Source of the DNA: Paraspadella gotoi
Lineage: Eukaryota; Animalia; Chaetognatha
Direction: 5' to 3'
Assembly: GCA_051294375.1 (NCBI GenBank)
Contig: CM119270.1
Span: 5,492,050-5,556,049 of the forward strand
Length of the DNA stretch: 64,000 nt
Every line of letters begins with the position of its first letter. Positions within the stretch are counted from its first letter, which is position 1. Position numbers and translations under genes: made by a program. Positions 5,595 to 63,835 of this stretch are shown piece after piece. The notes beneath the pieces were generated by a model. The model did no database searches, was not told where the DNA came from, and saw only the letters and a program-made list of their open reading frames with translations.

Positions 5595-16084
<10,490 letters not shown>

Positions 16085-33845: not shown

Positions 33846-36800
33846 ATGGCCGAGATCGATTGGACCTACGGCAACGACTACACCGGATACGATGACGCCG
33901 CAGCCGCAGCCGCCGACCCCTTCACCCCATTACGCATCAACAGGCTCCGCTTCAACGGCGCCATCTTGTACGACGCGCCCTCTATGTACAAATCCTTTCT
34001 TCGCGCCTTCGTCTCCGAGGCGACGGGAGAAGCGTGGAACAAGAGCCACGCGTGGAAGATCTGGTGTCTGGACAATTACGACAGCGTCATTGCTGACTAC
34101 AGGTGAAGCAAACCGAACTAGTAAAAAAAAGTAATAATTTGAACAGATTTAGGCATCAATTATTTATGGTGTTGAAATCTTATCCAAGCTTTACTCATAT
34201 ATTTATATAAATACCTAATTGACAATATGCTTTGCGAAAAAAACTTTAATTTGGCAAATAAAAATTTTTAATCCTTAATATAGTATAAAAAAAAACATTC
34301 AAGCGTTTATCAAATTTATTATTCAATTTTTAAGTTGTTTTCTAGACATGTTCATAAAGTTTTAGTCGAAGTTCTCAAACACCCTATTGAATCGAATCGG
34401 CTCTACTTCAGGCAGCTGCACAAGACAATTGCCAAGGGTAAGACGGAGCCGGTGAGCGGGAAATACGTGCCAGTTTTCTCCCAGGGCAACGTAGCTCTCT
34501 TTTCTCACGTCATCGATCGTACGGAGCAGCGGGGGTGCGTGAAGCACGGCAGCGTCGTGCTGCGGCAGCAGCGGGAGGCCTTGGTGAATGATGACGGCGG
34601 TGGATGGGATGACGCGTATTGCTACAGGTGAGGTTGAAGTGAGGTAAGTTTTGCGAAAAAACAAAGGATCAATAACAAACAAGATATATTGTATAATCTA
34701 AGTTTTGATCTTTATTTCTCCAATTTGTATGCAATTTCCTTATTTTTTAACGCCCCGATCGGTTGACAGCTTCACCTGGCAATGTGGAGATTGTAACAGA
34801 GATAGGAATTTCACATTGTAAATTTACACAATGTACAATGAGCCAATTTAATTCCATTCGCTTTTCTGATTTCAATAAATCGATTCATCTCACGTTCGTC
34901 ATTTTATCACGACGTCATCAGCAAATTCGAGGCATTGAAGGAGAACGCGGTCAAGACTATGTTCAAGGATCTCCCCAAGCTGAAGTTGAAGTGGCTCGAC
35001 CGGATGGACCGGGTCAGGCTGGGCTACCTCGACCAAGAGCGGTTGGAGAAGACGAGGCTCAAGATTTGGAGGATGAAGAGAAAGGCGTTGGCGAAGAGAG
35101 AAATGGAGGAGGATTTGAAAAGAGATTTGGGGGAACATTTGGTGGAACATTCGCTGCATGATTTAGGGGGAAGGAGGGCGGACGAGGGCGACGTTGACGA
35201 CGAAGTGGTTCGCACTCATTATCTAGAGATGGAGTTTACGAGAGAAGAATTGACTGTCACTGACGAGAATGGTAAGTGTAATATCAAGTAAATAGAAATA
35301 TTAAATAAAAATTAAATGTCTACGAAAAAGGAAAAAAATTTTGTTTCGTTTTATTTTTAATTAAATTATTTTATTATAATTTATTTTTCTCGTTTGAAAT
35401 CATCCTTTCTAAACTTTTCCAACTTTTCCAACTGCAACGATCGGCTAAAGTTACGGCGACTCTGCCGACGCCGCCAATGACGACGCACTCGACGCAGCAA
35501 CAGCCTACGCAGCCGTCTCCGACGCCGCTGACTGATGCTGGAGATGAAGATTGGATTCAGGAGGGTCTAATCTTCGATCGTATTTTTGAAGGTGACAGAA
35601 AAAAGAACTTTGTCGTCGTCAAGGTTAAATATAACCTTGACTAGGACTAGATTGATATGTTTAATTTAATTTTACCTAAGTTTAATCGTTACCGATGATT
35701 TTCCTTTTTGTTAAATATTACATATTACAAACGGATGAAACGTTTTTATTATTTATTTATGGATTAGAACCCGGAACCTTCCAGCCACAAGCCGAAGTGG
35801 ACGAGAAGGAGGAAGAGGAGCAGGAGAAAGAGGAGCAGGAGGAAGAGGAACAGCAGAAAGAAGCGGAGCATTTGGACGACGACAACAACCCCACTTCCTC
35901 CTCCTCCATCTGCCCCTCGCGAATCGCCGCCTCTCTCATCTTCTCTCCGCCGTCCTTCTCCAACGCCTGGTCGACGACGCCGAGATTCTTCGTCGGCGCC
36001 GATTTCGTCGCCGTCCAAGTCAACGGACGAATCCTCGTCTGGGGCGGGCGTCAGGTTCAGCCCCATCCGACCGACAATTCGCCCGACAATTCGCCCGACA
36101 ATCTCCGCTTCCTTCCCGCCGACGTCGTCTTCGTCCTCGAAGTCGCTCCCTCTCTCTGGCGGAGAATTCCGGCGACCGGCGACGTTCCGCCCGGCACGAA
36201 GGACGCCGCCGCCGTCGTTCTCGACGAGACCGTCTACATCTTCGGCGGCGGCGTCGACTGCGGCGGCGGCGAAATTCGCCGCACCAACGCCATCTTCTCT
36301 CTCTCGTTCGACGGAGAGTTCCAACGCCTCCTAGCGAGCGGCGACGTGCCTACGCCCCGGGAGGCGTTGCGAGGGTGGGCCTTTGAGGGCGACCTCTACT
36401 TCTTCGGCGGGGAAGGCGAGAGAGGCATCGGAGGCGGCTGGGTGGCGAACGCCTCGGACCCGAACACTTTCTACAACGACCAACTGATTCAGTTCGACGC
36501 AGCGCTCAACGTCTTTTCTCTCGTCCGCACGACGGGCCGACCGCCTTTCCCGAGATCCGGGTACGCCGCCGCTACATCCGGGGAGACGGTCTACGTCCAC
36601 GGAGGAAGCTGCGGCGAGGAGGCGTGGCAGGATTTTCACGCGTTGAACATGAAGAGTTTGGCGTGGTCGTCTTTGAATTGGGGTCCGTCGATCGCCGCGA
36701 GGGGTCACCAAATGAGTCCGATTTCCGAGACGCAAATGATCGTCGTTGGCGGCGACAGTGGCGGACGGGAAAAGGACGAGCGACTCTCGAACGAGGCGTT

Positions 36801-37005
36801 GTTCGTTGTCGACGTCGACGAGGAAAGTTTCGAGCGCCTCGATGTGGAGTTTGGCGCTGACAACGGCGGAGCCGTGGGCGTGACCGGACATCGAGTCGTC
36901 GCCGTCACGAATGAGCAAAGGATCGCGTGCGTCTTTTCCATCGGTGGATTTGTGGACAAAGATTCGACGCAGCACCCGAATCAAATCGTTAGATTCACAT
37001 GGTGA
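33846..37005 (+). CDS. Kelch-repeat beta-propeller protein (KLHDC-like C-terminus) with an unrecognised N-terminal region; 5 exons
   Basis: Exons ~33846-34102, ~34412-34627, ~34922-35271, ~35451-35591 and 35769-37005 join in frame. Kelch motifs ILVWGG, VYIFGG, LYFFGG, VYVHGG, MIVVGG, FSIGG. Confidence 0.8.
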
Positions 37006-37902: not shown

Positions 37903-40419
37903 TCACAACTCGTCCTTCGTCTTCTGCGCCTTGGCCCACTCCGCGGCCTCCTGCACCACCACCTCCACATCATCGTAGGACTTCTCCAACTCCTTCCAGT
38001 CTTCCGCCTTCAAGAGATCCACGTCCGATTCCTCAATCTCGCCGTCGCCGTCGACGTCCATTCGATCGAAGACTTTGGCGCGAAACATGTCCGAGGCCCG
38101 CTGCTCGAAAGAGGCCGGCTTGTCTGGGGGAAGAGAAAAGTGGAAGAAGTTTGGGATTCGTTAATAATATTATTATTAATTATTAATAATTTGAAAGTTT
38201 TAAACCCAACGGTATGAGATCATGGCCACCTTGAGACTACCGAGTACTGAAGGTAAAAAATCCAAGGGCTGGGGGGAACCCGTCAATTGCTCGCCAGAGT
38301 TTTATCGAAATATACGTAGACGGTTAAATTCTAAACAGACACTAAATACAAAAAGCAATCATATTAACTTGTCATAATTATTTGCTTTGTTTCAAAATTA
38401 AGCATTTCATAACTTTTAGTTTCTTGACTCTCCCTCCTTTTTTCAGTGCCATTTCTTTTTCCTTACCTCCCCCACCCCATCCCTCACTTTCAAAAGCGTA
38501 TCTGTCGGTGAAGGTGTCGGTCATGTGAATCTTCCAGTAGGAGTCGAAGGTGAGAGGGTCTGGATCCCTCACGATCTCGCGGACGAGGTCCTCCAGAGTC
38601 CGGGGCTTTTCCTCGTCCCACTCGACGTCGCCGAAGGTGAGACTATGGTTCATGGAAGTGACGCCGGAGCAGGCGGAGATGTCCACCTGGTGGAAATTGT
38701 AGTAAGATGGACGAAACATTTACACATTTTTAGATGAAATTACAAGATTCTTGAAAACAGAATTTAAACTTGATTTTAAATCTTAATATTTCTTTTTATC
38801 CAGTCTTAATCTTTTATTCATTAATTCGTTTAAACTAACTTTTTTTTATAATTTCTGAGGCCAAAACTTACTTTAGGCAATGCGAAGGTCATATATGTAA
38901 AATTAAAGCATGTTAATACAGAAAACTTTTTGCTACATACATTTTTAACCGCTTCTCTGGTCCAGAAAACGTTGACGGCGATGTTTCTTTCAAAGGATCG
39001 GACTTGATGGATGAAGTTATAAGGAATGTAGAGACAGTCACCGGCAGAAACATTGGCATAGTAATACTCGGATACAGTTGACATCGTAGGGTATTTGGTG
39101 TAGTTAACAGCGTCTACATCGATTGTCGAGAAAGAACCTTTGCTCTTGTCCATTGGAAACTCTGGAAATCTGGAAATACCAAAAGTTGCAAATGTTATGG
39201 CGATAATAATCGATTGATTCATGATGTTTGGATAGCTTTATTAAATTATTTTTTTTAAATTATCAAAGAGCACAAGCGTAAAAAAAAAATTCTATTCTGG
39301 CCATAATGATTACATTTTAGTAATAGTTTGAATTTACTTTCTTGGGTCAACGATAATGGTGGTCTTGTTTCCCCTGACGACGCAATTAATGTTGTCATAG
39401 TGATCCGTGTGAACTAGACCGTTGGTTCCTCCTCGCGACATCCACAAGTGATTAGATGACAAGAAAGGAAAGAATTCCGAACACTGGAATGAAAAAACAA
39501 AACATTTTGTAGTTAAATAAAAGTCATATTTAATTTCAGCTCGCAACACGACAAGTATTAAACTTGCCTGTAAAGAGCCAGGTAGAGGAATGTCTTTCCG
39601 GAGATAAGTTGGTGATTTGTTGATACAATAAACGGGCAACTCTAAGTAGTGCTCGAGAAAAAGCCGAAACGGAATCGCGTAGACTTCCTGATCGCGAAAT
39701 TCCTTCTTAGCCGTTTCCACAGTCACGTTGGTTTTCTCAGGATCTTCCAAGCTCCTAAGTTTTTGTCCCCCGAAAAAGATGTTTGAATATTTTCAAAAGA
39801 ATATTTTCACAATAATACATTGCGCGGAAGCTAAAAGATAAACATTGAACTAGTCGATAAGGCGCGAAGTTGGCTGAAGATGACTTTACGCCCTCTAGCA
39901 GCCATGGAACGGGTCGGTGGGCTGGACCCAGAATTAAGGTTTTTCCAAAACCCCAAAGCGGTTTACGGCCGTCCTCACGCTTCTCGCAGGGTAAGTACCA
40001 TAGGGGATCTAACAACTGAAAGAGTCATAAACATAAGCCCGACTTCAAACTCACTTGAGATATTCATCCTCCCAAAGTTTAAAGGCCGGCGTCTCTTTGT
40101 ATCCTCCCTTGAAGATGAGGGGACGAAGTGGGACAACGAAATCGTTGAAGAACTCCGTCGGGGACATGAACCCACTCCGCTCTTCCACGAGAATGCGGTT
40201 GCCCGCGTCGAAGTGACCGAAATGCTTCAGGTGACCTGCGGCAAAGTCAAAGCAGAACGTGTCAAACCTTTTAAGGGGAGACGATCGAGGAGTTGAAAAT
40301 TGAAAGACTACTAGTTTTAACATAATAAAAATATTTTACTATTATAATTTACCTGGATGTGGTTCCCCATTACTAAGAACTTGATTAAAAATCGCGACCA
40401 AAACGAGCAAGCGTAACAT
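37903..40419 (-). CDS. ER-lumenal JmjC/cupin 2-oxoglutarate-Fe(II) oxygenase, paralog A (signal peptide, JmjC, EF-hand, KDEL); 7 exons
   Basis: Exon 1 MLRLLVLVAIFNQVLSNGEPHP; RPLIFKG...AFKLW; LWMSRGGTNGLVHTDHYDNINCVVRGNK (HxD and 2OG-binding Lys); AGDCLYIPYNFIHQVRS (distal His); DVDGDGEIEESD EF-hand; ends KTKDEL*. Similar to the JMJD5/JMJD7/FIH-type JmjC-only class. Confidence 0.9.
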
Positions 40420-40764
40420 ATTTAGCCCAAAGGTTTTTTTAAAACTAAATAAAAGCAACATTTTTTAACCATAAAAATACATAAACTTAAAAGATTTCTT
40501 TTTTTCATTTTTTAAAACAATGAAACCATAAATATAAACTATTGGAAAATGTAAGAAAATGCACGATAGAAAAAGAAATTTAAATTTCAAGTTTTTTTAC
40601 AGTAATGTCCGCAATGTCACAGGTTTTTTTCCAAACGCGATCAATTGTAAGCTTTCAATGTTAAGTTTCTGAATAAAAAAAATTAAATAATATTTTAATT
40701 CAAACGCAGTTAAAAAATTTGTTAAACAGTTAAAACCCGTACCCATCAAATAGGTAAAACAAAA

Positions 40765-41352
40765 TTACCAACCTTTCAACATGGCTTTGATCAAGTGTTT
40801 CAGTCTTCCCACTACTTTATCATGGTAGGGCTCCTTGCTGAACTCTACCTCTCTTTTGTTGTGGTAAGGATACATGCCGGACAATTCCTCTCTTTTAATG
40901 TAATAGGGCTGCATGCCAGATCCTTCCTCTCTTTTGATATGGTAAGGTTGTATGCCAGATCCTTCTCTTTTGATATGGTAAGGTTGTATGCCAGATCCTT
41001 CCTCTCTTTTGATATGGTAAGGTTGTATGCCAGATCCTTCCTCTCTTTTGATATGGTAAGGTTGTATGCCAGATCCTTCCTTTCTTTTGATGTAGTAAGG
41101 CTTTATTCCAGATCCTTCCTCTCTTTTGATGTAATAAGGCTTTATTCCAGATCCTTCCTCTCTTTTGATATAGTAAGGCTTTATTCCAGATCCTTCTTCT
41201 CTTTTGATATGGTATCCAATCAAAAATCCAGCTTTCCTTTTTTTAAGGTGAGGCTCCATGCTAGACCCTTCTACTCTTTTAGTGCCGTAAGCCCAGGGTG
41301 TCGTGATCATTATAAGCACGATGGCCAAGCTTACTTTATTCGTGCAATACAT
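40765..41352 (-). CDS. Multicopy secreted peptide precursor (prepropeptide) with KR-flanked EEGSGI(K/Q)PY(Y/H)I repeats
   Basis: 195-aa ORF with an N-terminal hydrophobic signal and 39-nt tandem units. Nine near-identical peptides plus about 3 degenerate ones, each followed by KR. Confidence 0.88.
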   Translation of the reverse strand: MYCTNKVSLAIVLIMITTPWAYGTKRVEGSSMEPHLKKRKAGFLIGYHIKREEGSGIKPYYIKREEGSGIKPYYIKREEGSGIKPYYIKRKEGSGIQPYHIKREEGSGIQPYHIKREEGSGIQPYHIKREGSGIQPYHIKREEGSGMQPYYIKREELSGMYPYHNKREVEFSKEPYHDKVVGRLKHLIKAMLKGW

Positions 41353-41896
41353 CGCGATATCCGTGAGATTGTCTCAAAGAAACTTGCAGAAGATACTAAA
41401 GCAAAAGGTTAAACAAACTGGCTACTTTTTTTATAAAACTTTGGTTAAATAAATAAAATATTTTTAAAATATAATTATATATAACTTTGTTTTTGGTATT
41501 CTTTTAAATGCAAACTCAGCTAGACTAAATTTTTAAAAATTTTAAACTATAATAAAATATAATAAAAATCTAAAACTTAAAAACTTCTCGCAGTTACAAA
41601 TTAAATTAAAAAAATTATAAATTTAAAATTTTACCTGTTCATAGAATAAAAGCAATTAATAATGGCGTAGTCGAGAAATATTCATTTAATTCTTTTTTAA
41701 ATTAAGAAAATTGCATTCTCACTTTGGAAGGATTTACTGAACCTGTTTAACTGGTTGTGCGGAACAATAATTACCTTTTTTTGACTCAGAATGAACAGTC
41801 TCAAACATTAAAAGATTATATAAAATTATTAAAAAGTTTTAACCCAAAAGTAAAAATAACAAAGGTATGATTGGCAAGAAAATAGTAAAGCAAACT

Positions 41897-42090
41897 AAAT
41901 TTTACTTTTGCCGACCATGGTTTTGGCAACTTAAAAAACTACTTAAAAATATTTATTTAAAAAAAAAATGTTTTAAATATTACCCAATTACCTTAACCCT
42001 TTTAACCCTAACCACCCCTAACCCTAAACCACCCCCTAAACCACTCTTAAACCTAACCCCTCTCTAACCCCGGTCGGTAAAAATAAAAGT
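41897..42090 (+). mobile_element. Short element with inverted ends (AAATTTTACTT..GCCGACC / GGTCGG..AAAAT) and degenerate (CCCTAA)n interior; inverted copy at 48797-48908
   Basis: Two related copies plus a diverged one at ~37295-37430. Confidence 0.5.
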
Positions 42091-43435
42091 AACCTGAAAA
42101 GAATATCTCGGTAAAGAAACAGATAGTCTTATAATCACAAAAAATCTTATTAAACTAGATTTTTGGTAATATATTTCATTTTATCAGCCTATGAAAAAAA
42201 AAAAATAAAATGTAATAATACAGAAATTCTTTATTTAATGGGCAAGGAACTGGAATCAAAGGCTGAACAATGGTAAATCTGAAACCTTAACTTAGTTAAG
42301 TTCATCCTCCCTAAAACATCATTTGGGGAGGACGCATTAATAAATACATTAATTTTGAACAACATACTTTGGGTATGGTTGTGCAGAGCATTGGTTTATG
42401 GGCTTGGGCTCTCAGAATAACAATGCTATTCTGAGAATATATAACCTTTTGCCGGTAGTATCTTTAAAAAAATGTGTTTAAGTTTGAAATAAAAAATTAT
42501 AAATTAAATTATTTTTTAATTATAATTACTTATTAAAATCAAACTCATGCGAGCTTACTGAAGAACGAATTATTTTAAATCCAAAAATCTAAAAAACATA
42601 GAACAAAAAAAAATGGTTGCAAAATTTACCAAGATAGCAAAAATACAAAATAAAATGTAAAATATATAGAATTGTTGAGAATAGCTGAATTGAAGCAGGG
42701 TAATTGAAACAATTTATGCAAGGTAATTCTTTTAAACCAGGTTCTTCCTCCCTTCCTTCAAAGACAAGGATAATGGATGCATTAACCTTGAACTTGATAA
42801 ATCTTTTGAAACCGTTCTTGTAGGTTATTGACAGTAGCCATTTTGTTTGTTTTTCTACCCATAACCTCTCTGCCACGAATCCTTTCGGGTTATCAATCTG
42901 ACTGCTATTATCCAAATTTTCTTTTTATTTAAATTTCACATCAATAATAATTTCATATTCTCCGATATTACAATATAATTTTTACCTTACAATCTTTACC
43001 AAAATCTCAAAAAAATAAATTGGTCCAGTATTATTGAGCAGGAAACGAGTTCGTCAACCTTTTTGTGCTCAAGGTCGTTTCAACAAAAACAAGAATCAGT
43101 CACTCCAGTTTCGATTTAATGATGTAGTTTTTGACAATTAACAGAGGCCTCAGGAGAGTGGTTTTAATAATATGATACAAAAATATTATGATTGTAATTA
43201 TAAAAGAATGGATAAAAAATAAGGCCTGAAAGTTTTATTTTCATTGAACAAACGTACAGCAGCAGAAAGAATAACAATTAAGCCGAATGTGCAAATTTTT
43301 TATCTTCCAAAAATTTATAATATAAAGGCAGAGAAAAAAGTAAATTACCTTGATCCAATTATGTTGCTCCATCTCTTCCCCTTAACTTTCCTCTCGCTCC
43401 CTTCTCTCCATTCCATCGTCCCTCATCTACCCCCT

Positions 43436-46400
43436 TCACAACTCTCTCTTCTTCCTAATCTCCCACTCCTCTGCCTGTATCACCACCTCCTCCATCTCAT
43501 CGAAGGACTTCTGCACCTCATCCCAATCTTCATCCTTCAATCGATCCAAATCTTCCTTCTCGATCTCTCCGTCCGCGTCGACGTCTAGCCCTTGGAAGAC
43601 CCCCGTCGCGGAAGATGGCCAGGGCGCGTTCCTCGAAGGTGGCGGGTTTGTCTGGTGGTTGAGGGAAGGGAAATTGCAAATTCTTTTTTTTTTTAATGAT
43701 TAAATGATTACAATGATTAAAATTACCACAGCTAAGCAAAAAAACAAAGGTTGCAGGTTACTCTTTTTTTTTCAGAACAGAGTTTAGATAACTCATTGTA
43801 CTTTTTTCTACGAATAACTCACTTTTAAACGCGTAAGTATCGGAATAAATATCCGTCATTTGATGGAACCAAAATCTTTTCAAGGTCAACGGCGAAAATT
43901 CCCTGAGGAGTCTTCTCACGTGATCTCTCAGATTCGGAAGCCTTTCTTCTTCCCAGTCGATGTCGGCGGCAGTGAGGCTTTGATTCATGGAGTGGACGGC
44001 GGAGCAGGCGGAGATGTCTACCTTTTTAAGGGGATGGAAAGCTCAAGAAGCATCTTATGGTAGCGGTATTAGTTATCGAGTTTTTTCTTTCAAAAATGTT
44101 TCAAACCAAGAGTAATTCGCTGATTAATATTATTATATTGCTTTATAATGTCAAAATTTTTTTAAAGGATATTTTAAGTTCTTTTAATTGATTCTGATAA
44201 GTTGAGCAAAAAATGTAATTGCAACTACTAAAATTATCAGATGATAATGATAATTTTTTAAGGTTTTTCTTAATTTTTTAAAAAATATTTAAAAGAAAAG
44301 AATTATATTTTATGTAAACAACTTTTCATAAGCTATTTGAATCTGTTTAAAAAAAAGTTTTAACAAAATTTTAGAAGCAACATTTGAATAGAATCATTGA
44401 TTTATTTGTATTATTTACATGTTTTGGCTTTCGCTGCCAACCTTCATCAGCATCAATATAATATATAATATTGACGTTGATGAAGGCTTGCAGCTAAAGC
44501 GGAAACATGTAAATAATACAAATAAATCGTTGATTCTATACAAATTTTGCCTCTAATAAAAAACATTGAAAAAGAAAAGGATTACAATACAATAAAAAAA
44601 ATTTGAAATTTTCTATCTATAAATAAATATTAAAAAAATAATTATTAGTGCTTCTAGCCATCTTAGAAAATTTTGGTCCATTGAAAGTTTTCTCAGTAAT
44701 GTATAAAGTTTCATTTGGGAAGGTTCCCAAATCAACCTTCTGATCCACCCTACTTATGGTTAATTACTTCTCAGTTCTGCATTAAAATGACAAAATATTA
44801 CACGAAATGAGCCGAATTTACTATTTGATCATGTGACCCTAAATCTAAGTAATCATATTAACTAAAACGACTCTTTACCATTTTATTAATTATGCCACTG
44901 TGGCGGTATATATATACCGACCCACCACATTGAATTTTGGACCTTGTGATTGTTTTTTTAAAGGATCACGTGACCGCTGAATGTTTATATGCATGCACAT
45001 TTGCACATACATGCACTTTTCTACCAAAATGATAAGCATTTAAAACGTTAATGTGACAGACTGGCGGACAGACTGACCTTCCGCCACTTAGGTGACCTCG
45101 ATATACATTGTTGCTTCACGATTCTTTATAACTAAAACTTCATCAGTAATTAGACCCGATTTGCCGCGTCCCTGCTCCAGAAAAAGTTGACAGCGATGTT
45201 CCTTTCGAACGATCGTACTTGATGGATAAAGTTGGCGGGGATGAAAAGACAATCTCCGGCAGAAACATTCGCAAAAAAATATTCGGTCACTGACGACATG
45301 GTTGGGTATTTCGTGTAGTCGACAGCGTCAACATTGATTGTGGAATAAGAGCCATTGCTCTTATCTAATGGAACGTAGGGAAATCTGGACATGGGGCAAA
45401 ATGACTTACAGAAATTACTAAAGATATATATATTATTTAGCCCCTGATTGTAGAATCAAGGAAACGCCGGTTTATGTGTTGAGTATTACAATATTATATT
45501 ACAATGGCAAAAAGACAATTTCAAACGACATCTTACTTCATTGGATCGACGATGATGGTATTTTTTTCGCCCCTGACGACGCAATTGATGTTGTCTTGAT
45601 GATCGATGTGAACTAGACCGACGGTTCCGCCTCTCGACATCCAAAATAGATTTGCCGCCAGAAAAGGGAAAAATTCGGGACACTGCATGACAAATACAAA
45701 AAAAATAATAATAAATGAACAAAATTGAAAGGATAAACTAGTTAACTCTGCCTGAATAGCGCCGGGTAGCGGAATGTCTTTGCGAAGCTGCGCGGGAGTA
45801 TTAGTGACAACGTACAATGGAACTTCCTTGTAAATGTCGAGAATGATGTTGAATGGAACCGAGAGGACCTCCTGATCACGTGATTCTTTTTGAGCCGTCT
45901 CAACAGTCATGGTGGTGCTCATGAGATCTTTGAGGCTCCTTTGGTTAAAAATATTCGGAATGGGATCTCAAAATGAATATCAATTTCATGTAGTGCATTT
46001 AAGAAAATAAACTGGTAGGAAATTGCAATTTTATCAACTACTACGGTATATGTCCAATGTCTATAATACGTATGAAATCGAAAAAGTCCATTAACAGAGT
46101 AAATAAGTTCTGTTGATTGTTACCTATAATTCATTAGAATTAAAGGAAAAAATTTATTCATCAAGTTCATTCATCAAATAATTTAAGTAGACAATTAAAT
46201 ATTGTTACATAAACGGTTTGTGCAACAATAATAATTCAAGATTTTATTTCACTATTTGACCACAAACAGTGAAGTCATTTTGTCGAATATATTTTATATA
46301 TATTATTGTTGATTTATTAATTTACCTAAAGTCATCGTCTTCCCAGAGCTTAAAAGCCCTCGTTTCGTTGAAGCCCCCTCTGAAGATGAGGGGACGGCGG

Positions 46401-46705
46401 GGGACCAAGAAGTCTGAGAAGAAAACCGAAGGAGGTAGAAACCCCCTTCTCTCCTCGACGGGGATGCGGGTTCCTGCCTTAGGGTGGCCGAAGGGAAGGA
46501 AGTGACCTGAAGCAAAGTTATCATTGAGCGAACTTTATAACAGGATTATTATTATCATAGAGAAGGAACATTAATACGACTCACCTGGGTGCGGATTCTC
46601 GTCGGTTCGTACATTATCCGTGATCGCCACCAGCAACAGCGAGTAATGTACGATTGAGTTAAAAAATGGTGGCGTCAGAAGAAAAGTTTTTAAAGCGTTT
46701 TTCAT
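43436..46705 (-). CDS. ER-lumenal JmjC oxygenase, paralog B (signal peptide, JmjC, EF-hand, KREL); 1-nt frameshift in the last exon as assembled
   Basis: Same 7-exon structure as paralog A; LVHIDHQDNINCVVRGEK; AGDCLFIPANFIHQVRS. Removing one C from the run at 43600-43604 restores DVDADGEIEKED...RKKREL*. Confidence 0.85.
44371..44556. mobile_element. ~186-bp palindrome of two degenerate hammerhead-like halves inserted in a MITE-like repeat (intron of JmjC-B)
   Basis: Arms read (c/t)TGATGAAgg...aaagc(c/g)(g/a)AAACATGTA on opposite strands. The insert is absent from the related repeat copy at ~47765-48030. Confidence 0.55.
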
Positions 46706-47423
46706 TTCGACTAATAATCATGATCTAAAACCCACCAGCGCCTGCAAAATTTTATTTTAAGGGAGAACTAAAAATGGCCTCGACCATGACAATTTTCAAA
46801 TTAATACGCAAGTTTAAAAACATTTACAATTAAAATTTTAAAAAATAAAGGTTTTTATTAAATAATTCATACAAAATATCGAGATTGGTTTATTTCATTA
46901 AACTTTGCATTCGAAATACAAATCATTTCTATGGTAAGAAAGAGTAAGGAGGAAAAAGGAGGAAAAAGCAGATGAGGGTGAAAATCAGAGAGAGAGAGAG
47001 AGACAGAGAGAGACAGAGAGAGAGAGAAGGAAAAAGAGAGACTCTCAAAAACTTCAAGTTCAAAGAAAACATCTTGTTAAGGTATAGTTGCCGCTAAAAA
47101 ACCATTGTCAGCAGAATATTGGAATCCGGTATCAATAGAATCTAAAATTTATGATAAGACAGATTTTATCGAAAAGGAAAGTAAAAACAACTAAATATGT
47201 TCATTTCGTCTTTTCATCCTGTTGAATTCGCCGTATGCGAACGAAAAATTTGTTCAGGGAAAATCAATAAAATGAAGAAAAAAAATTACTTAAATCGCGA
47301 ATTCCAAAGCGGTTAACGTTAAAACTATTCATTTTCGGTTTTACCCCATTTTATGCTGATGAAATTCTTTTCAATTAATTGCCTTTCGAAATTTCCTCTT
47401 TTTCTTTTGTTTCTTTTATTCAT

Positions 47424-48252
47424 TTATATCACTCCTACAACTCTTCTTCTAAAAATCGAGCGACGCCTGATGAGGAATTCCTCGGGATTAGATCCTAAAA
47501 TAAAGATGGCGAAGAGACAGTAATTATTGTTATGTGTTAGTGACAGAACCGTTCAAGCACTTATTAAGCAGTCCCTGACCTTCGGATCAGGCTGTAACAC
47601 CATGTTACAGGCGGGTTAAGCGCCCCGTCCCTCTTAACTGCTAGGCGGCCACCGGGCTAGAACCCCGGACCTTTGGGTTGGGAACTTGGGAGGCGAATGA
47701 CTTTCCTCCGGCACCAATGGCCGCTGATGAACGGTTGGTGGATTTTAGTCCACCATATGATGATGATTTTTTAAGGTTTTCCCAATTTTGACTCGCTTAT
47801 CATCAAAATATTGAAAAAAGAATTATACTTTGTGTAAACAACTTTTCATAAGCTATTTGAATCTGTTTTTAAAAGTATAAAATTTTTTAAACAAAATTTT
47901 GACATTTCCTATCTATAAATAAATATTAAAAAATTAATTACTTGTGCTTCTAGCCATATTAGAAAATTTTGGTCCATTGAAAGTTTTCTCAGAGATGTAA
48001 GAGGTTCCCAAATCAAACTTCTGACCCACCCCATTAACATTGATTGGCCATACCCCTAGATCTTTTTCTCTCCCTCCCCTCACTTCCCCTTCCCTCACCA
48101 GTGTATTGCTTCAATGCTTCTCTCAGCTTTGTCCGAACGTTCCCGTCGTCATTGGCGCCAATAGCGGCGTCATTTTCCTTCGGTTGCGCTTGACAGAAAA
48201 CTAATGCAGCGGCGATGACGATGATCGTCATGTAGGATTTGATAGTCAACAT
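47424..48252 (-). CDS. Small secreted prepropeptide with Arg-rich C-terminal peptide; 2 exons
   Basis: Exon 1 48252-48099 MLTIKSYMTIIVIAAALVFCQAQP...NVRTKLREALKQYT G|gtgag; exon 2 47494-47424 GSNPEEFLIRRRSIFRRRVVGVI*. Homologous to the neighbouring gene. Confidence 0.75.
47511..47755 (-). mobile_element. Copy of the tRNA-containing SINE/HINE-like repeat in the intron of the 48.2-kb peptide gene
   Basis: Reverse complement matches the 27-kb copies end to end. Confidence 0.7.
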
Positions 48253-48549
48253 CGCGATTGAAATTAAATCGAAATTTAATATTTTACGAGGATTATTAAT
48301 TTACTGAAGCGCAAAAAAAAATCAATATGAAATTACTTTCTCGGTCATTGATACAGATTTGAAATAAAAAACACCCTTGGCAGTTCAATTTAAAAAAAAA
48401 GGCCGCATTTATCTTTTAAAACAATTTCGTTTATCCGCAGTTTCTAAAAATGACGAATCGTTTAAAATTTTGCCCTCGTTTTTACCAGTTTTAAGTTATT
48501 AGAACCGGTTTGACAAAATCTTAAATAGGGTTGAACAATCTCAGCGATA

Positions 48550-49569
48550 TCAGCCCCTTCGAAAGATAGACCGACGCTTACTTCGTAAGGTTTCCGGATC
48601 CGAACCTGAAGATAAAAAAAAGTTCTGTTGTACTTACAAATTGTACCGAAATAAAACGCATTTCAGCTGTTTTTATGAGCAAAATTTTAAAAAAATGCAT
48701 TTCTTTATGCCGTAAATAGACTTTAGGAATCACCAGGAGGTCAGCTTTTTTAATCTGAACTTCATTTTTCCTCATATTCCAGTTGATTTGGGGTTAATTT
48801 TACTTGAGCCGACCGAGGTTAGGGTTAAGAGTAGTTTAGGTTAGGGGTGGTTATTTTTAAGTGGTTTTTTAAAAGACACCAAAACCGCGGTCGGCGAAAG
48901 TAAAATTTGAATGACAGTTTATCTTAAGAGAAAGCTCGTTATTATCGGTTTTAAGTTAGTAAAACTAGTTTGAAAATATTTAAAATGATCAATCGAGGAG
49001 CTCAACCTTAGCCATTTCTGCGTCTTCTACGAAAGACGGAACGACGCTTATTTCTGAAAGTTTCCGGGTCCGAACCTAAAAATAAAAGTTTTATTTAGAT
49101 TTTTTTTCTTAATTAAAACATTTATAACATTTTATAAGAATGACGCAGCGAAATTGAAGGTCGTAAGCTCCCTAAAGCAAACGAACAAAATGGCGGCAAA
49201 ATTTTTATTTGTCCAATCTAAAATGCATTTTACATCTTGTTTTTAAACGATTCCTCCTTCCAGGACCCCTACCTCCCCTCACCCTCTCAACTCACCATTG
49301 TAATAATTCTTCAAGACTTCCCTCAGCCTCGTCACGACATCCTCCTCGGATTCCTCATCGACGGCTTCCCTGCCAGCGCCGTTCCCAGCTTCGCCTCGTT
49401 CGCCGATTTTGCCGTCGTCTTGACCGGCGACTTCTCCATCTACATCCGGGCCGTATTTGCGGTTGCCAGAGACTTGGTGCCGACGGGTTAAGCCATCTCC
49501 GCCGTCGAGGTAAACGAAGGCCAAAACGGCGAAGATCGTGACGACGAGAGATATTTTCAGGGAAATCAT
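48550..49569 (-). CDS. Small secreted prepropeptide with acidic spacer and two alternative homologous terminal exons encoding Arg-rich, Gly-extended peptides
   Basis: Exon 1 49569-49296 (signal; ...EESEEDVVTRLREVLKNYYN G|gtgag); exon 2a 49075-49008 GSDPETFRNKRRSVFRRRRRNG*; exon 2b 48605-48550 GSDPETLRSKRRSIFRRG*. Both have good acceptors and are phase 1. Confidence 0.78.
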
Positions 49570-49888
49570 GATTAAAAACAAAAAATTTTGAGCGGCTGAA
49601 AATGAAACTCACTTGCGTTAAACGTACGAATAGTAATTAATCAATTTCAGTAACTTAAATACTAAAAACAAATAGGAATTCCAGAGAAAATAAGACATAA
49701 AACATATTTAACCTATAAAGAGGAGTAAAAACCATATAAAAGGTTTGTAAAATTGTATATAAAGCTCTATTAAGCTTTTCACGAATTCTAAATCAAGTAG
49801 AAAAAATAAAACAGTTTTTAGCAGTCGGTTTAGACTTTAGTCGTTTCATAAGACTAAAATAAGGCATAAGACTGAAAGGCCCCGATTT

Positions 49889-50323
49889 TCAATCGTAGAC
49901 GCTTTTTAAGGGACGCTTCCGTCGAGGAAGCGCATCCTTCCGTAGCGACGACCAGGACGGGCCACTTCTGTAGCCCCTAGACGCATGAGCTCTTGAGGTA
50001 AAGCCTGATGTCAACGACCCACGATGTTCGCGGATCGGGGCGCTTGGTTGGTTCGGGAAAGACGACCCTGGTATAAATAAGATGGCATTTTTTTGTTTGC
50101 TTTATTTCTTACTCTACTAAAACGCTAGCGGTTCACTTACTCCCCCCTCACCATCGAATTCGCTCCATTGACCGCCCAGGCTTTGAATGATTCTGTTCCA
50201 ATCGTGATTCCACGTTTCTTCTCTCTCATCGTTGCTCTTCGCGGCGAACGCTTCGTCGCTGAGGCAAACGGCGAAGACGACGACGAACGCGGCGATCGCC
50301 GCTGAGACTTTGATGAGCTTCAT
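49889..50323 (-). CDS. Small secreted prepropeptide; 2 exons
   Basis: Exon 1 50323-50152 MKLIKVSAAIAAFVVVFAVCLSDEAFA...WNHDWNRIIQSLGGQWSEFD G|gtgag; exon 2 50067-49889 GSSFPNQPSAPIREHRGSLTSGFTSRAHASRGYRSGPSWSSLRKDALPRRKRPLKSVYD* (furin-like RRKR). Confidence 0.7.

Positions 50324-57245: not shown

Positions 57246-63835
<6,590 letters not shown>

What the first reader, a model, noticed from the sequence alone, without database searches (positions are those of the whole stretch)
37903..50323. Candidate animal RiPP-like cluster: four secreted peptide precursors interleaved with two ER-resident JmjC oxygenases
Seen: six genes head-to-tail on the minus strand in 12.4 kb, in the order precursor-precursor-precursor-JmjC(B)-repeat precursor-JmjC(A), with several stop-to-start gaps of only ~300-720 bp. 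Both oxygenases have a signal peptide, intact HxD...H triad, EF-hand and KDEL/KREL, so they would share the ER lumen with the prepropeptides. Known: JmjC-only enzymes hydroxylate protein residues (JMJD5 Arg, JMJD7 Lys, FIH Asn/His/Asp), and invertebrate defence peptides such as ascidian styelin D carry dihydroxy-Arg, dihydroxy-Lys and DOPA. Inference: the enzymes tailor the neighbouring Arg-rich and Tyr/His/Lys/Pro-containing cores, forming a peptide biosynthetic gene cluster in an animal genome.
Basis: partly seen in the sequence, partly recalled or inferred. Interest (0 to 1): 0.92.

Follow-up and report, generated by a model that had tools for sequence, protein, structure and literature searches.

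The report
Arrow-worm peptide-plus-hydroxylase operon
In what is likely an arrow worm, four expressed genes for secreted peptides are interleaved with two genes for an iron-dependent oxygenase predicted to sit in the secretory pathway; one peptide gene is likely transcribed on the same RNA as the intact enzyme, which would likely hydroxylate the peptide, an arrangement known from bacteria and fungi.

Summary
The six genes are real, in the stated order, and spliced in RNA-derived contigs. New here: a 19-of-19 match to the chaetognath spliced leader SL2 is joined at an AG 25 nt before the ATG of JmjC-A. One spliced contig runs from the repeat precursor P4 across the 241-bp gap into JmjC-A. A splice joint links the 3' UTR of JmjC-B to P4. 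So P4 and JmjC-A look like a trans-spliced operon. JmjC-A is intact, with the JMJD5-type metal and 2-oxoglutarate residues and KDEL.

Corrections: JmjC-B is frameshifted before its EF-hand and KREL in 4 of 5 samples, and lacks a catalytic His codon in 2 of 3 DNA runs. The amidating Gly of RSIFRR is allele-specific. The enzyme is not cluster-specific: it belongs to an old, misannotated ER-type JmjC family of molluscs, amphioxus and plankton. No precursor linkage was seen in 29 relatives' genomic fragments (low power).

Co-transcription about 0.9; the enzyme tailoring these peptides about 0.5, untested. No animal precursor-plus-enzyme operon turned up in my searches.

The parts
49889..50323 (-). 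P1: 116-aa prepropeptide; signal, acidic exon 1, Ser/Arg-rich exon 2 (net +9); exons 50323-50152, 50067-49889
   Evidence: Model; 84-nt intron seen as a joint in X6; charge
48550..49569 (-). P2: prepropeptide with two alternative last coding exons (49075-49008, core RSVFRRRRRNG; 48605-48550, core RSIFRR-G)
   Evidence: Models; joints skipping 220, 690 and 401 nt in X6; Gly and stop read Arg in X4
47424..48252 (-). P3: 74-aa paralogue of P2 (same phase-1 intron, shared helix and RRSIFRR core)
   Evidence: Model; X6 contig 29 runs from the last exon of P2 across the gap to the P3 donor (48098-48606); the P3 joint itself was not among the rows shown
43436..46705 (-). JmjC-B: 7-exon paralogue of A (63-64% identity), spliced in RNA, segregating broken alleles
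   Evidence: last intron seen in X6 and X9; extra base near 43600 in 4 of 5 samples; 16-nt deletion over the first His in X4 and X5
41396..43348 (-). 1953-nt intron joining the 3' UTR of JmjC-B to the acceptor 43 nt before the P4 ATG (read-through form)
   Evidence: Joint in X6 only, GT..AG, 30 letters on the short side. X9 instead shows a poly(A)-like end for B at 42918 and a separate upstream exon for P4 (joint 41395/41635)
40661..41352 (-). P4: 195-aa multi-core precursor; signal plus KR-flanked cores (3 of EEGSGIKPYYI, 5 of the GSGIQPYHI type, and variants); exons 41352-40773 and 40668-40661
   Evidence: no homologue among 2646 candidates
40420..40660 (-). 241-bp gap between P4 and JmjC-A; no AATAAA/ATTAAA; AG acceptor at 40446-40445 where the spliced leader is joined
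   Evidence: loose end in X9 (2 contigs) equals the last 19 nt of chaetognath SL2.0 (PMC2481426 Table 3); that sequence is absent from the window
37903..40419 (-). JmjC-A: 409-aa signal + Cupin_8/JmjC + EF-hand-like + KDEL; exons 40419-40353, 40235-40055, 39754-39568, 39483-39338, 39169-38941, 38686-38488, 38123-37903
   Evidence: no differing letters in the long contig pieces listed over its exons for X1, X4 and X5 or in the spliced X6 contig

Best explanation
This is likely a chaetognath operon in which a multi-core peptide precursor (P4) is co-transcribed with an oxygenase predicted to reside in the ER (JmjC-A) that would hydroxylate the peptides before they are cut out. Steps: (1) shown, all six genes are spliced or covered in RNA-derived contigs; (2) inferred from a spliced bridging contig and a spliced-leader end, P4 and JmjC-A share a pre-mRNA that trans-splicing resolves at 40444; (3) predicted, both products enter the ER and KDEL holds the enzyme there; (4) inferred from likeness to JMJD5/JMJD7, Fe(II)/2-oxoglutarate-dependent C3 (beta) hydroxylation, +16 Da, most likely of Lys or His in the P4 cores; (5) inferred, convertases cut at KR and release the cores. 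P1-P3 with JmjC-B would be a second module for Arg-rich cationic peptides, whose enzyme copy is decaying or polymorphic.
For: X6 contig of 1484 nt joins 170 nt of P4 coding sequence, the spliced P4 intron, the gap and spliced JmjC-A exons; the P4 joint is also in X9, a second study. SL2 19/19 at an AG 25 nt before the ATG of A. No canonical poly(A) signal between P4 and A. Joint from B's 3' UTR to P4 in X6. X6 contig 29 bridges P2 to P3, and contig 30 covers the whole P1-P2 gap but only 15 nt of P1 coding sequence. Two precursor types with no evident similarity each lie directly upstream of a JmjC copy. A keeps the equivalents of JMJD5 W310, H321, D323, N327, K336, H400 and V402 (residues from PMC5862942, passages). 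A and B are a sister pair (support 100) with changes beside the active site (family SGGTKSV reads RGGTNGL and RGGTVGL; S318 equivalent is Gly), which fits a new substrate. Precedent: the JmjC enzyme CzlI hydroxylates a bacterial RiPP precursor (PMC11575548, passages).
Against: No enzyme or peptide data. A contig across two genes does not prove one transcript (tool caveat); the SL end rests on 2 contigs of one run. The family is ancient and probably has ordinary ER substrates: full-length relatives at 30-39% identity in Dreissena, Mya, Mytilus, Branchiostoma and unnamed records. None of 29 genomic fragments of relatives (288 kb) shows a KR-repeat precursor (short, redundant, no known chaetognath). 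18% of genes of a sequenced chaetognath are in operons, enriched for housekeeping and depleted for signalling genes (PMC12460157, passages), so neighbours need not be functional partners. B is broken in 4 of 5 samples. In X9, B ends at its own poly(A)-like site and P4 has its own upstream exon, so the B-P4 link is not constant. With many windows scanned, a peptide gene beside an ER oxygenase will sometimes arise by chance.
Confidence: 0.5

Rival explanations
1. Passenger operon: JmjC-A is a general ER protein hydroxylase of an old family that duplicated in tandem and came to share transcription with peptide genes through genome compaction; its substrates lie elsewhere.
For: Family is widespread with the same architecture; operons are common in chaetognaths and mostly housekeeping; SL addition lets A be made as its own mRNA; no linkage in relatives' fragments; B is decaying.
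Against: Two precursor types each precede a copy; P4 sits between the two copies; A and B differ from the family beside the active site; signalling genes are depleted from chaetognath operons, so this one is atypical.
Confidence: 0.3
2. Shared gland programme: the six genes are co-expressed in one secretory cell type (adhesive, epidermal or prey-capture), but the oxygenase modifies other secreted proteins of that cell.
For: Co-transcription and a common predicted compartment. Benthic chaetognaths have adhesive gland cells (bioRxiv 10.1101/2025.01.31.635879, section 22 read). Hydroxy-Arg occurs in mussel adhesive plaques (PMC11603075, passage).
Against: No other secreted substrate gene is evident in the locus; that preprint's main text has no mention of JmjC, hydroxylation or DOPA.
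Confidence: 0.14
3. No real operon: the bridging contigs come from read-through or from overlapping UTRs merged in the assembly graph, and the genes are independent neighbours.
For: All RNA evidence is contigs, not reads; X9 shows separate ends for B and a separate first exon for P4.
Against: The bridge carries a spliced P4 intron in two studies; an SL end lies at the expected AG; the 241-bp gap has no canonical poly(A) signal.
Confidence: 0.06

Closest known systems
JMJD5 / JMJD7 / TYW5 / FIH (JmjC-only hydroxylases)
   Same: Cupin_8 domain, HxD...H and 2-oxoglutarate residues. Family profile vs JMJD5 E 9e-26, JMJD7 2e-21, TYW5 2e-18, FIH 2e-15. Model of relative P0002 matches TYW5 and JMJD5 best (E about 1e-14, about 19-26% identity).
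   Different: Signal peptide, EF-hand-like tail and ER-retention motif; S318 equivalent is Gly in A and B; substrate unknown. Database names TYW5-like, JMJD5 and JMJD7 for the relatives look like misannotations.
JMJD8 (human ER-lumen JmjC protein, PMC5684140, passages)
   Same: JmjC-only protein with a signal peptide in the ER lumen.
   Different: JMJD8 has His in place of the metal-binding Asp and is suspected inactive; A has an intact HxD, an EF-hand-like tail and KDEL.
Fungal KEX2-processed repeat precursor clusters, e.g. epichloecyclin gigA-gigB-gigC-kexB (PMC10540207, abstract)
   Same: Secreted multi-core precursor cut by a KEX2-type protease, clustered with an oxidative tailoring enzyme.
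   Different: There the enzyme is DUF3328, with a methyltransferase and protease in the cluster, and the product is cyclic; here the enzyme is JmjC, no protease gene is in the locus, and linkage is through a trans-spliced operon.
CzlI of the curacozole RiPP cluster (PMC11575548, passages)
   Same: JmjC Fe/2OG enzyme encoded next to a precursor that it hydroxylates.
   Different: Bacterial and cytoplasmic, Phe-to-Tyr chemistry, gene upstream of the precursor.
Sponge proline-rich macrocyclic peptide precursors (PMC10945851, passages)
   Same: Animal-encoded multi-core RiPP-type precursors with signal peptides.
   Different: Macrocyclised; I saw no linked tailoring enzyme in the passages read.
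Chaetognath SL trans-spliced operons (PMC2481426 section 12 read; PMC12460157 passages)
   Same: Same SL2 end, short gap, downstream gene trans-spliced.
   Different: Described operons are ribosomal, proteasomal and other housekeeping genes, depleted for signalling; this one holds a secreted peptide precursor and an ER enzyme.

Membership tests
JmjC-only Fe/2OG hydroxylases | Cupin_8/JmjC domain with HxD...H | tested here: met
   for A and for the window allele of B; His lost in the X4/X5 allele of B
JmjC-only Fe/2OG hydroxylases | 2-oxoglutarate contacts equivalent to JMJD5 N327, K336, W310, V402 | tested here: met
   Read from alignments against PMC5862942; S318 equivalent is Gly, L329 equivalent is Asn family-wide
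JmjC-only Fe/2OG hydroxylases | Hydroxylase activity on a protein residue | not testable with these tools
   Needs an enzyme assay
JMJD8 | His in place of the metal-binding Asp | tested here: not met
   A has HTD, B has HID (PMC5684140)
Chaetognath trans-spliced operon | Spliced leader joined at an AG before the downstream gene and absent from the DNA | tested here: met
   For JmjC-A only; 2 contigs of run X9
Chaetognath trans-spliced operon | Genes under 250 bp apart (criterion of PMC12460157) | tested here: inconclusive
   P4 to A is 241 bp stop to start (met). The other gaps are 297-2083 bp stop to start; UTR ends unknown
Chaetognath trans-spliced operon | Single RNA molecule spanning both genes | tested here: inconclusive
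   Spliced contig bridges P4 and A; contigs cannot prove one molecule
RiPP gene cluster | Ribosomal precursor with cores released by proteolysis | tested here: met
   KR-flanked repeated cores in P4, dibasic sites in P2 and P3; cleavage itself inferred
RiPP gene cluster | Linked enzyme shown to modify the precursor | not testable with these tools
   No peptidomics or assay
RiPP gene cluster | Precursor-enzyme linkage recurs in relatives | tested here: inconclusive
   0 of 29 genomic fragments of 5 kb or more show a KR-repeat precursor; fragments short and redundant, no chaetognath genome available
Fungal KEX2-repeat (dikaritin-type) clusters | DUF3328 oxidase and protease in the cluster | tested here: not met
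   Pfam on the locus exons gives only Cupin_8/JmjC and EF-hand

The most novel reading that the evidence does not exclude
This is a RiPP-type biosynthetic operon in an animal: precursor-plus-enzyme modules (P4 with JmjC-A; P1-P3 with JmjC-B) joined by spliced-leader trans-splicing, making hydroxylated peptides. It would assign a function to an unnamed ER-lumen JmjC family that could also make the orphan hydroxy-Arg and dihydroxy-Lys of mussel adhesive proteins and ascidian styelins.
Probability: 0.45. Interest if true: 0.9.

Novelty: new variant of a known kind. Interest (0 to 1): 0.74.

Why it matters
Clusters of a peptide precursor with its tailoring enzyme drive natural-product discovery in bacteria and fungi. 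I found none described for animals (open-access library only). If this one holds, operon-bearing animals can be mined the same way. It also supplies a testable enzyme and substrate pair for an uncharacterised ER-type JmjC family present in mussels and amphioxus. That bears on which enzymes hydroxylate Arg and Lys in secreted invertebrate peptides: hydroxy-Arg in mussel plaques (PMC11603075, passage) and dihydroxy-Arg/Lys in styelins (PMC10608444, passages). That these enzymes are unidentified is my recollection, not a search result.

Tried and rejected
No whole genome is held for this window, so family copy number and genome-wide rate of such neighbours are unknown. Word search with exons 3-4 of A found nothing; the exon 5 alignment found 10 of 76 candidates. 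P4: no homologue among 2646 candidates; its genomic ORF is not in the collection. Core motifs in papers: 4 irrelevant hits. Supplements of PMC12460157: no JmjC-type names in 3 PDFs; the marker-gene spreadsheet was too large to read and bioRxiv supplements are closed; both may bear on cell-type expression. No run was on record as RNA; I treat X6 and X9 as RNA-derived because only they show GT-AG joints at the predicted introns, and X9 shows poly(A)-like and SL ends. Contig depth was not used to rank genes. Two 4-nt insertions in X4 (45209, 48222) were dropped: both duplicate a GATC site, as proximity-ligation libraries do (inference). An alternative P1 donor giving a C-terminal amide was rejected: the X6 joint uses the 84-nt intron. 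My first donor for exon 5 of A was corrected by the RNA joint. The tree is the quick version without bootstrap; I used 31 rows (A, B, 9 of 18 stored proteins, 20 of 80 loci). The fold is of relative P0002, not of A. No complex prediction was sent. Earlier scan notes had nothing on this genome or sequence.
Full report
Gene structure. Six genes lie head to tail on the minus strand between 50323 and 37903. P1 (116 aa), P2 (113 or 109 aa by alternative last exon) and P3 (74 aa) have a hydrophobic N-terminus, an acidic first exon and a basic second exon (net +4 to +9). P2 and P3 are paralogues. P4 (195 aa) is a signal peptide followed by KR-separated cores of the types EEGSGIKPYYI and EEGSGIQPYHI. 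JmjC-A and JmjC-B share intron positions, including a GC-AG third intron, and 63-64% identity. A crude scan for signal-plus-hydrophilic ORFs gave 7 candidates in the window, 4 of them P1-P4.

Expression and organism. No listed run is on record as RNA. X6 and X9, from two studies, nonetheless show GT-AG joints at predicted introns that the DNA-like runs X1, X4 and X5 do not show. X6 confirms introns 1 and 3-6 of A, the P1 intron and three P2 joints; X6 and X9 confirm the last intron of B and an intron in P4 that removes its genomic stop. In X9, 2 contigs leave the window at 40444, right after an AG, with 19 foreign letters. These equal the last 19 nt of chaetognath spliced leader SL2.0 (PMC2481426, Table 3) and do not occur in the window at up to 2 mismatches. 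The animal is therefore very likely a chaetognath, and JmjC-A is trans-spliced 25 nt before its ATG.

Co-transcription. One X6 contig of 1484 nt runs from 170 nt of P4 coding sequence, over the spliced P4 intron and the 241-bp gap, into spliced exons of A. The gap has no AATAAA or ATTAAA. An X6 joint of 1953 nt links the 3' UTR of B to the P4 acceptor, with 30 letters on the short side. X6 contig 29 bridges P2 to P3, and contig 30 covers the P1-P2 gap with only 15 nt in P1 coding sequence. I have no bridge for P3 to B. Against a fixed six-gene transcript: X9 shows a poly(A)-like end for B at 42918 and a separate upstream exon for P4. Contigs cannot prove single molecules. I put co-transcription of P4 and A at about 0.9 and that of the whole locus much lower.

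The enzyme. A has Cupin_8 and the equivalents of JMJD5 H321, D323, H400, N327, K336, W310 and V402 (residue roles from PMC5862942, passages). A family profile is closest to JMJD5, then JMJD7, TYW5 and FIH; a model of relative P0002 (pLDDT 76) matches TYW5 and JMJD5 best. The whole architecture of signal, JmjC, EF-hand-like tail and retention motif is old. All 11 relatives aligned end in an xxEL motif at 30-39% identity, including Dreissena, Mya, Mytilus and Branchiostoma proteins labelled TYW5-like, JMJD5 or JMJD7. So do 19 of 28 longest ORFs printed from short metagenome loci. A and B form a sister pair within a clade with two unnamed proteins (quick tree, support 100) and differ from the family next to the metal site, where the S318 equivalent is Gly. 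It is not JMJD8, which lacks the Asp (PMC5684140, passages).

JmjC-B is weak. As assembled it has an extra base near 43600 and ends at 394 aa without EF-hand or KREL. Four of 5 samples covering the site carry that allele; X9 is in frame. X4 and X5 also delete 16 nt over the first His codon; X1 does not, and X6 had no cover there. In contrast, the long contig pieces listed over the exons of A show no differing letters in X1, X4, X5 or the spliced X6 contig, though X1 may be the assembly's source. The precursors vary: five amino-acid changes in one P4 haplotype in X9, four in the first exon of P2, and in X4 the Gly and stop of the RSIFRR exon both read Arg.

Linkage in relatives. Of 80 loci kept from 153, 29 are 5 kb or longer (288 kb). 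They gave 6 candidate ORFs: 2 are the enzyme's own first exon, 2 are one membrane-anchored-looking ORF, 2 are weak, and none is a KR repeat. The fragments are short and redundant, and none carries the SL motif (0 of 80), so this neither supports nor excludes a chaetognath-specific cluster.

Mechanism. I favour (0.5) a precursor-plus-enzyme operon. P4 and A are co-transcribed and resolved by trans-splicing (inferred from RNA contigs). Both enter the ER (predicted). A adds +16 Da at C3 of Lys or His in the cores (inferred from JMJD5/JMJD7/FIH chemistry; residue not determined). Convertases then cut at KR (established neuropeptide logic, recalled). P1-P3 look like acidic-pro, cationic-core defence peptides, and Arg hydroxylation by B or A could protect their Arg runs from proteolysis (speculation; PMC10608444 passages say such modifications likely add protease resistance). 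The main rival (0.3) is a passenger operon: 18% of genes in a sequenced chaetognath are operonic, mostly housekeeping (PMC12460157, passages). That paper also reports depletion of signalling genes from operons, which makes this locus atypical. A gland programme with other substrates (0.14) and a contig artefact (0.06) remain.

Comparison and novelty. It works like fungal KEX2-repeat clusters (PMC10540207, abstract) and like bacterial CzlI (PMC11575548, passages), but is not a member of either. Animal multi-core precursors are known from sponges (PMC10945851 and PMC12426817, passages), with no linked enzyme in what I read. Searches listed no animal precursor-plus-enzyme operon and no study of this ER JmjC family; I saw listings only, the library is open-access only, and unread supplements of PMC12460157 and of bioRxiv 10.1101/2025.01.31.635879 may hold expression data. 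Verdict: real, better supported than first read for the P4-A pair, overstated for B; new variant of a known kind; interest 0.74.

Noticed in passing
P0002-P0011; L001-L022: An uncharacterised family of signal + JmjC + EF-hand-like + xxEL proteins spans molluscs, amphioxus and GC-rich plankton transcripts and is labelled TYW5, JMJD5 or JMJD7 in databases; a candidate for hydroxy-Arg/Lys in secreted invertebrate proteins.
   Followed up: partly
window 48550-49075: P2 swaps its cationic core by alternative splicing of two paralogous last exons; an allele in X4 turns the amidation Gly and the stop into Arg.
   Followed up: partly
window 43436-43651: The common frameshift allele of JmjC-B keeps the catalytic domain but loses the retention motif, so it could be secreted rather than held in the ER.
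   Followed up: no
window 39484-39567 and 45683-45751: Both JmjC genes keep a short in-frame GC-AG third intron; the joint for A is seen in X6.
   Followed up: partly
window 57249-63400 (-): ABC transporter gene (ABC_membrane and ABC_tran hits) about 7 kb upstream of P1 on the same strand; probably unrelated.
   Followed up: no
window 8700-14200 (-): Astacin metalloprotease gene (E 7e-19) with Asp/Ser-rich N-terminal exons.
   Followed up: no
window 35794-37005 (+): Intronless Kelch-repeat ORF convergent with JmjC-A marks the right boundary of the locus.
   Followed up: no
window 47511-47757 and 44100-44700: High-copy interspersed repeats sit in the P3 intron and in intron 5 of JmjC-B.
   Followed up: no
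window 41635-41745 (-): A separate upstream exon of P4 in X9 appears to begin near an AG at about 41743; it may itself be trans-spliced.
   Followed up: no
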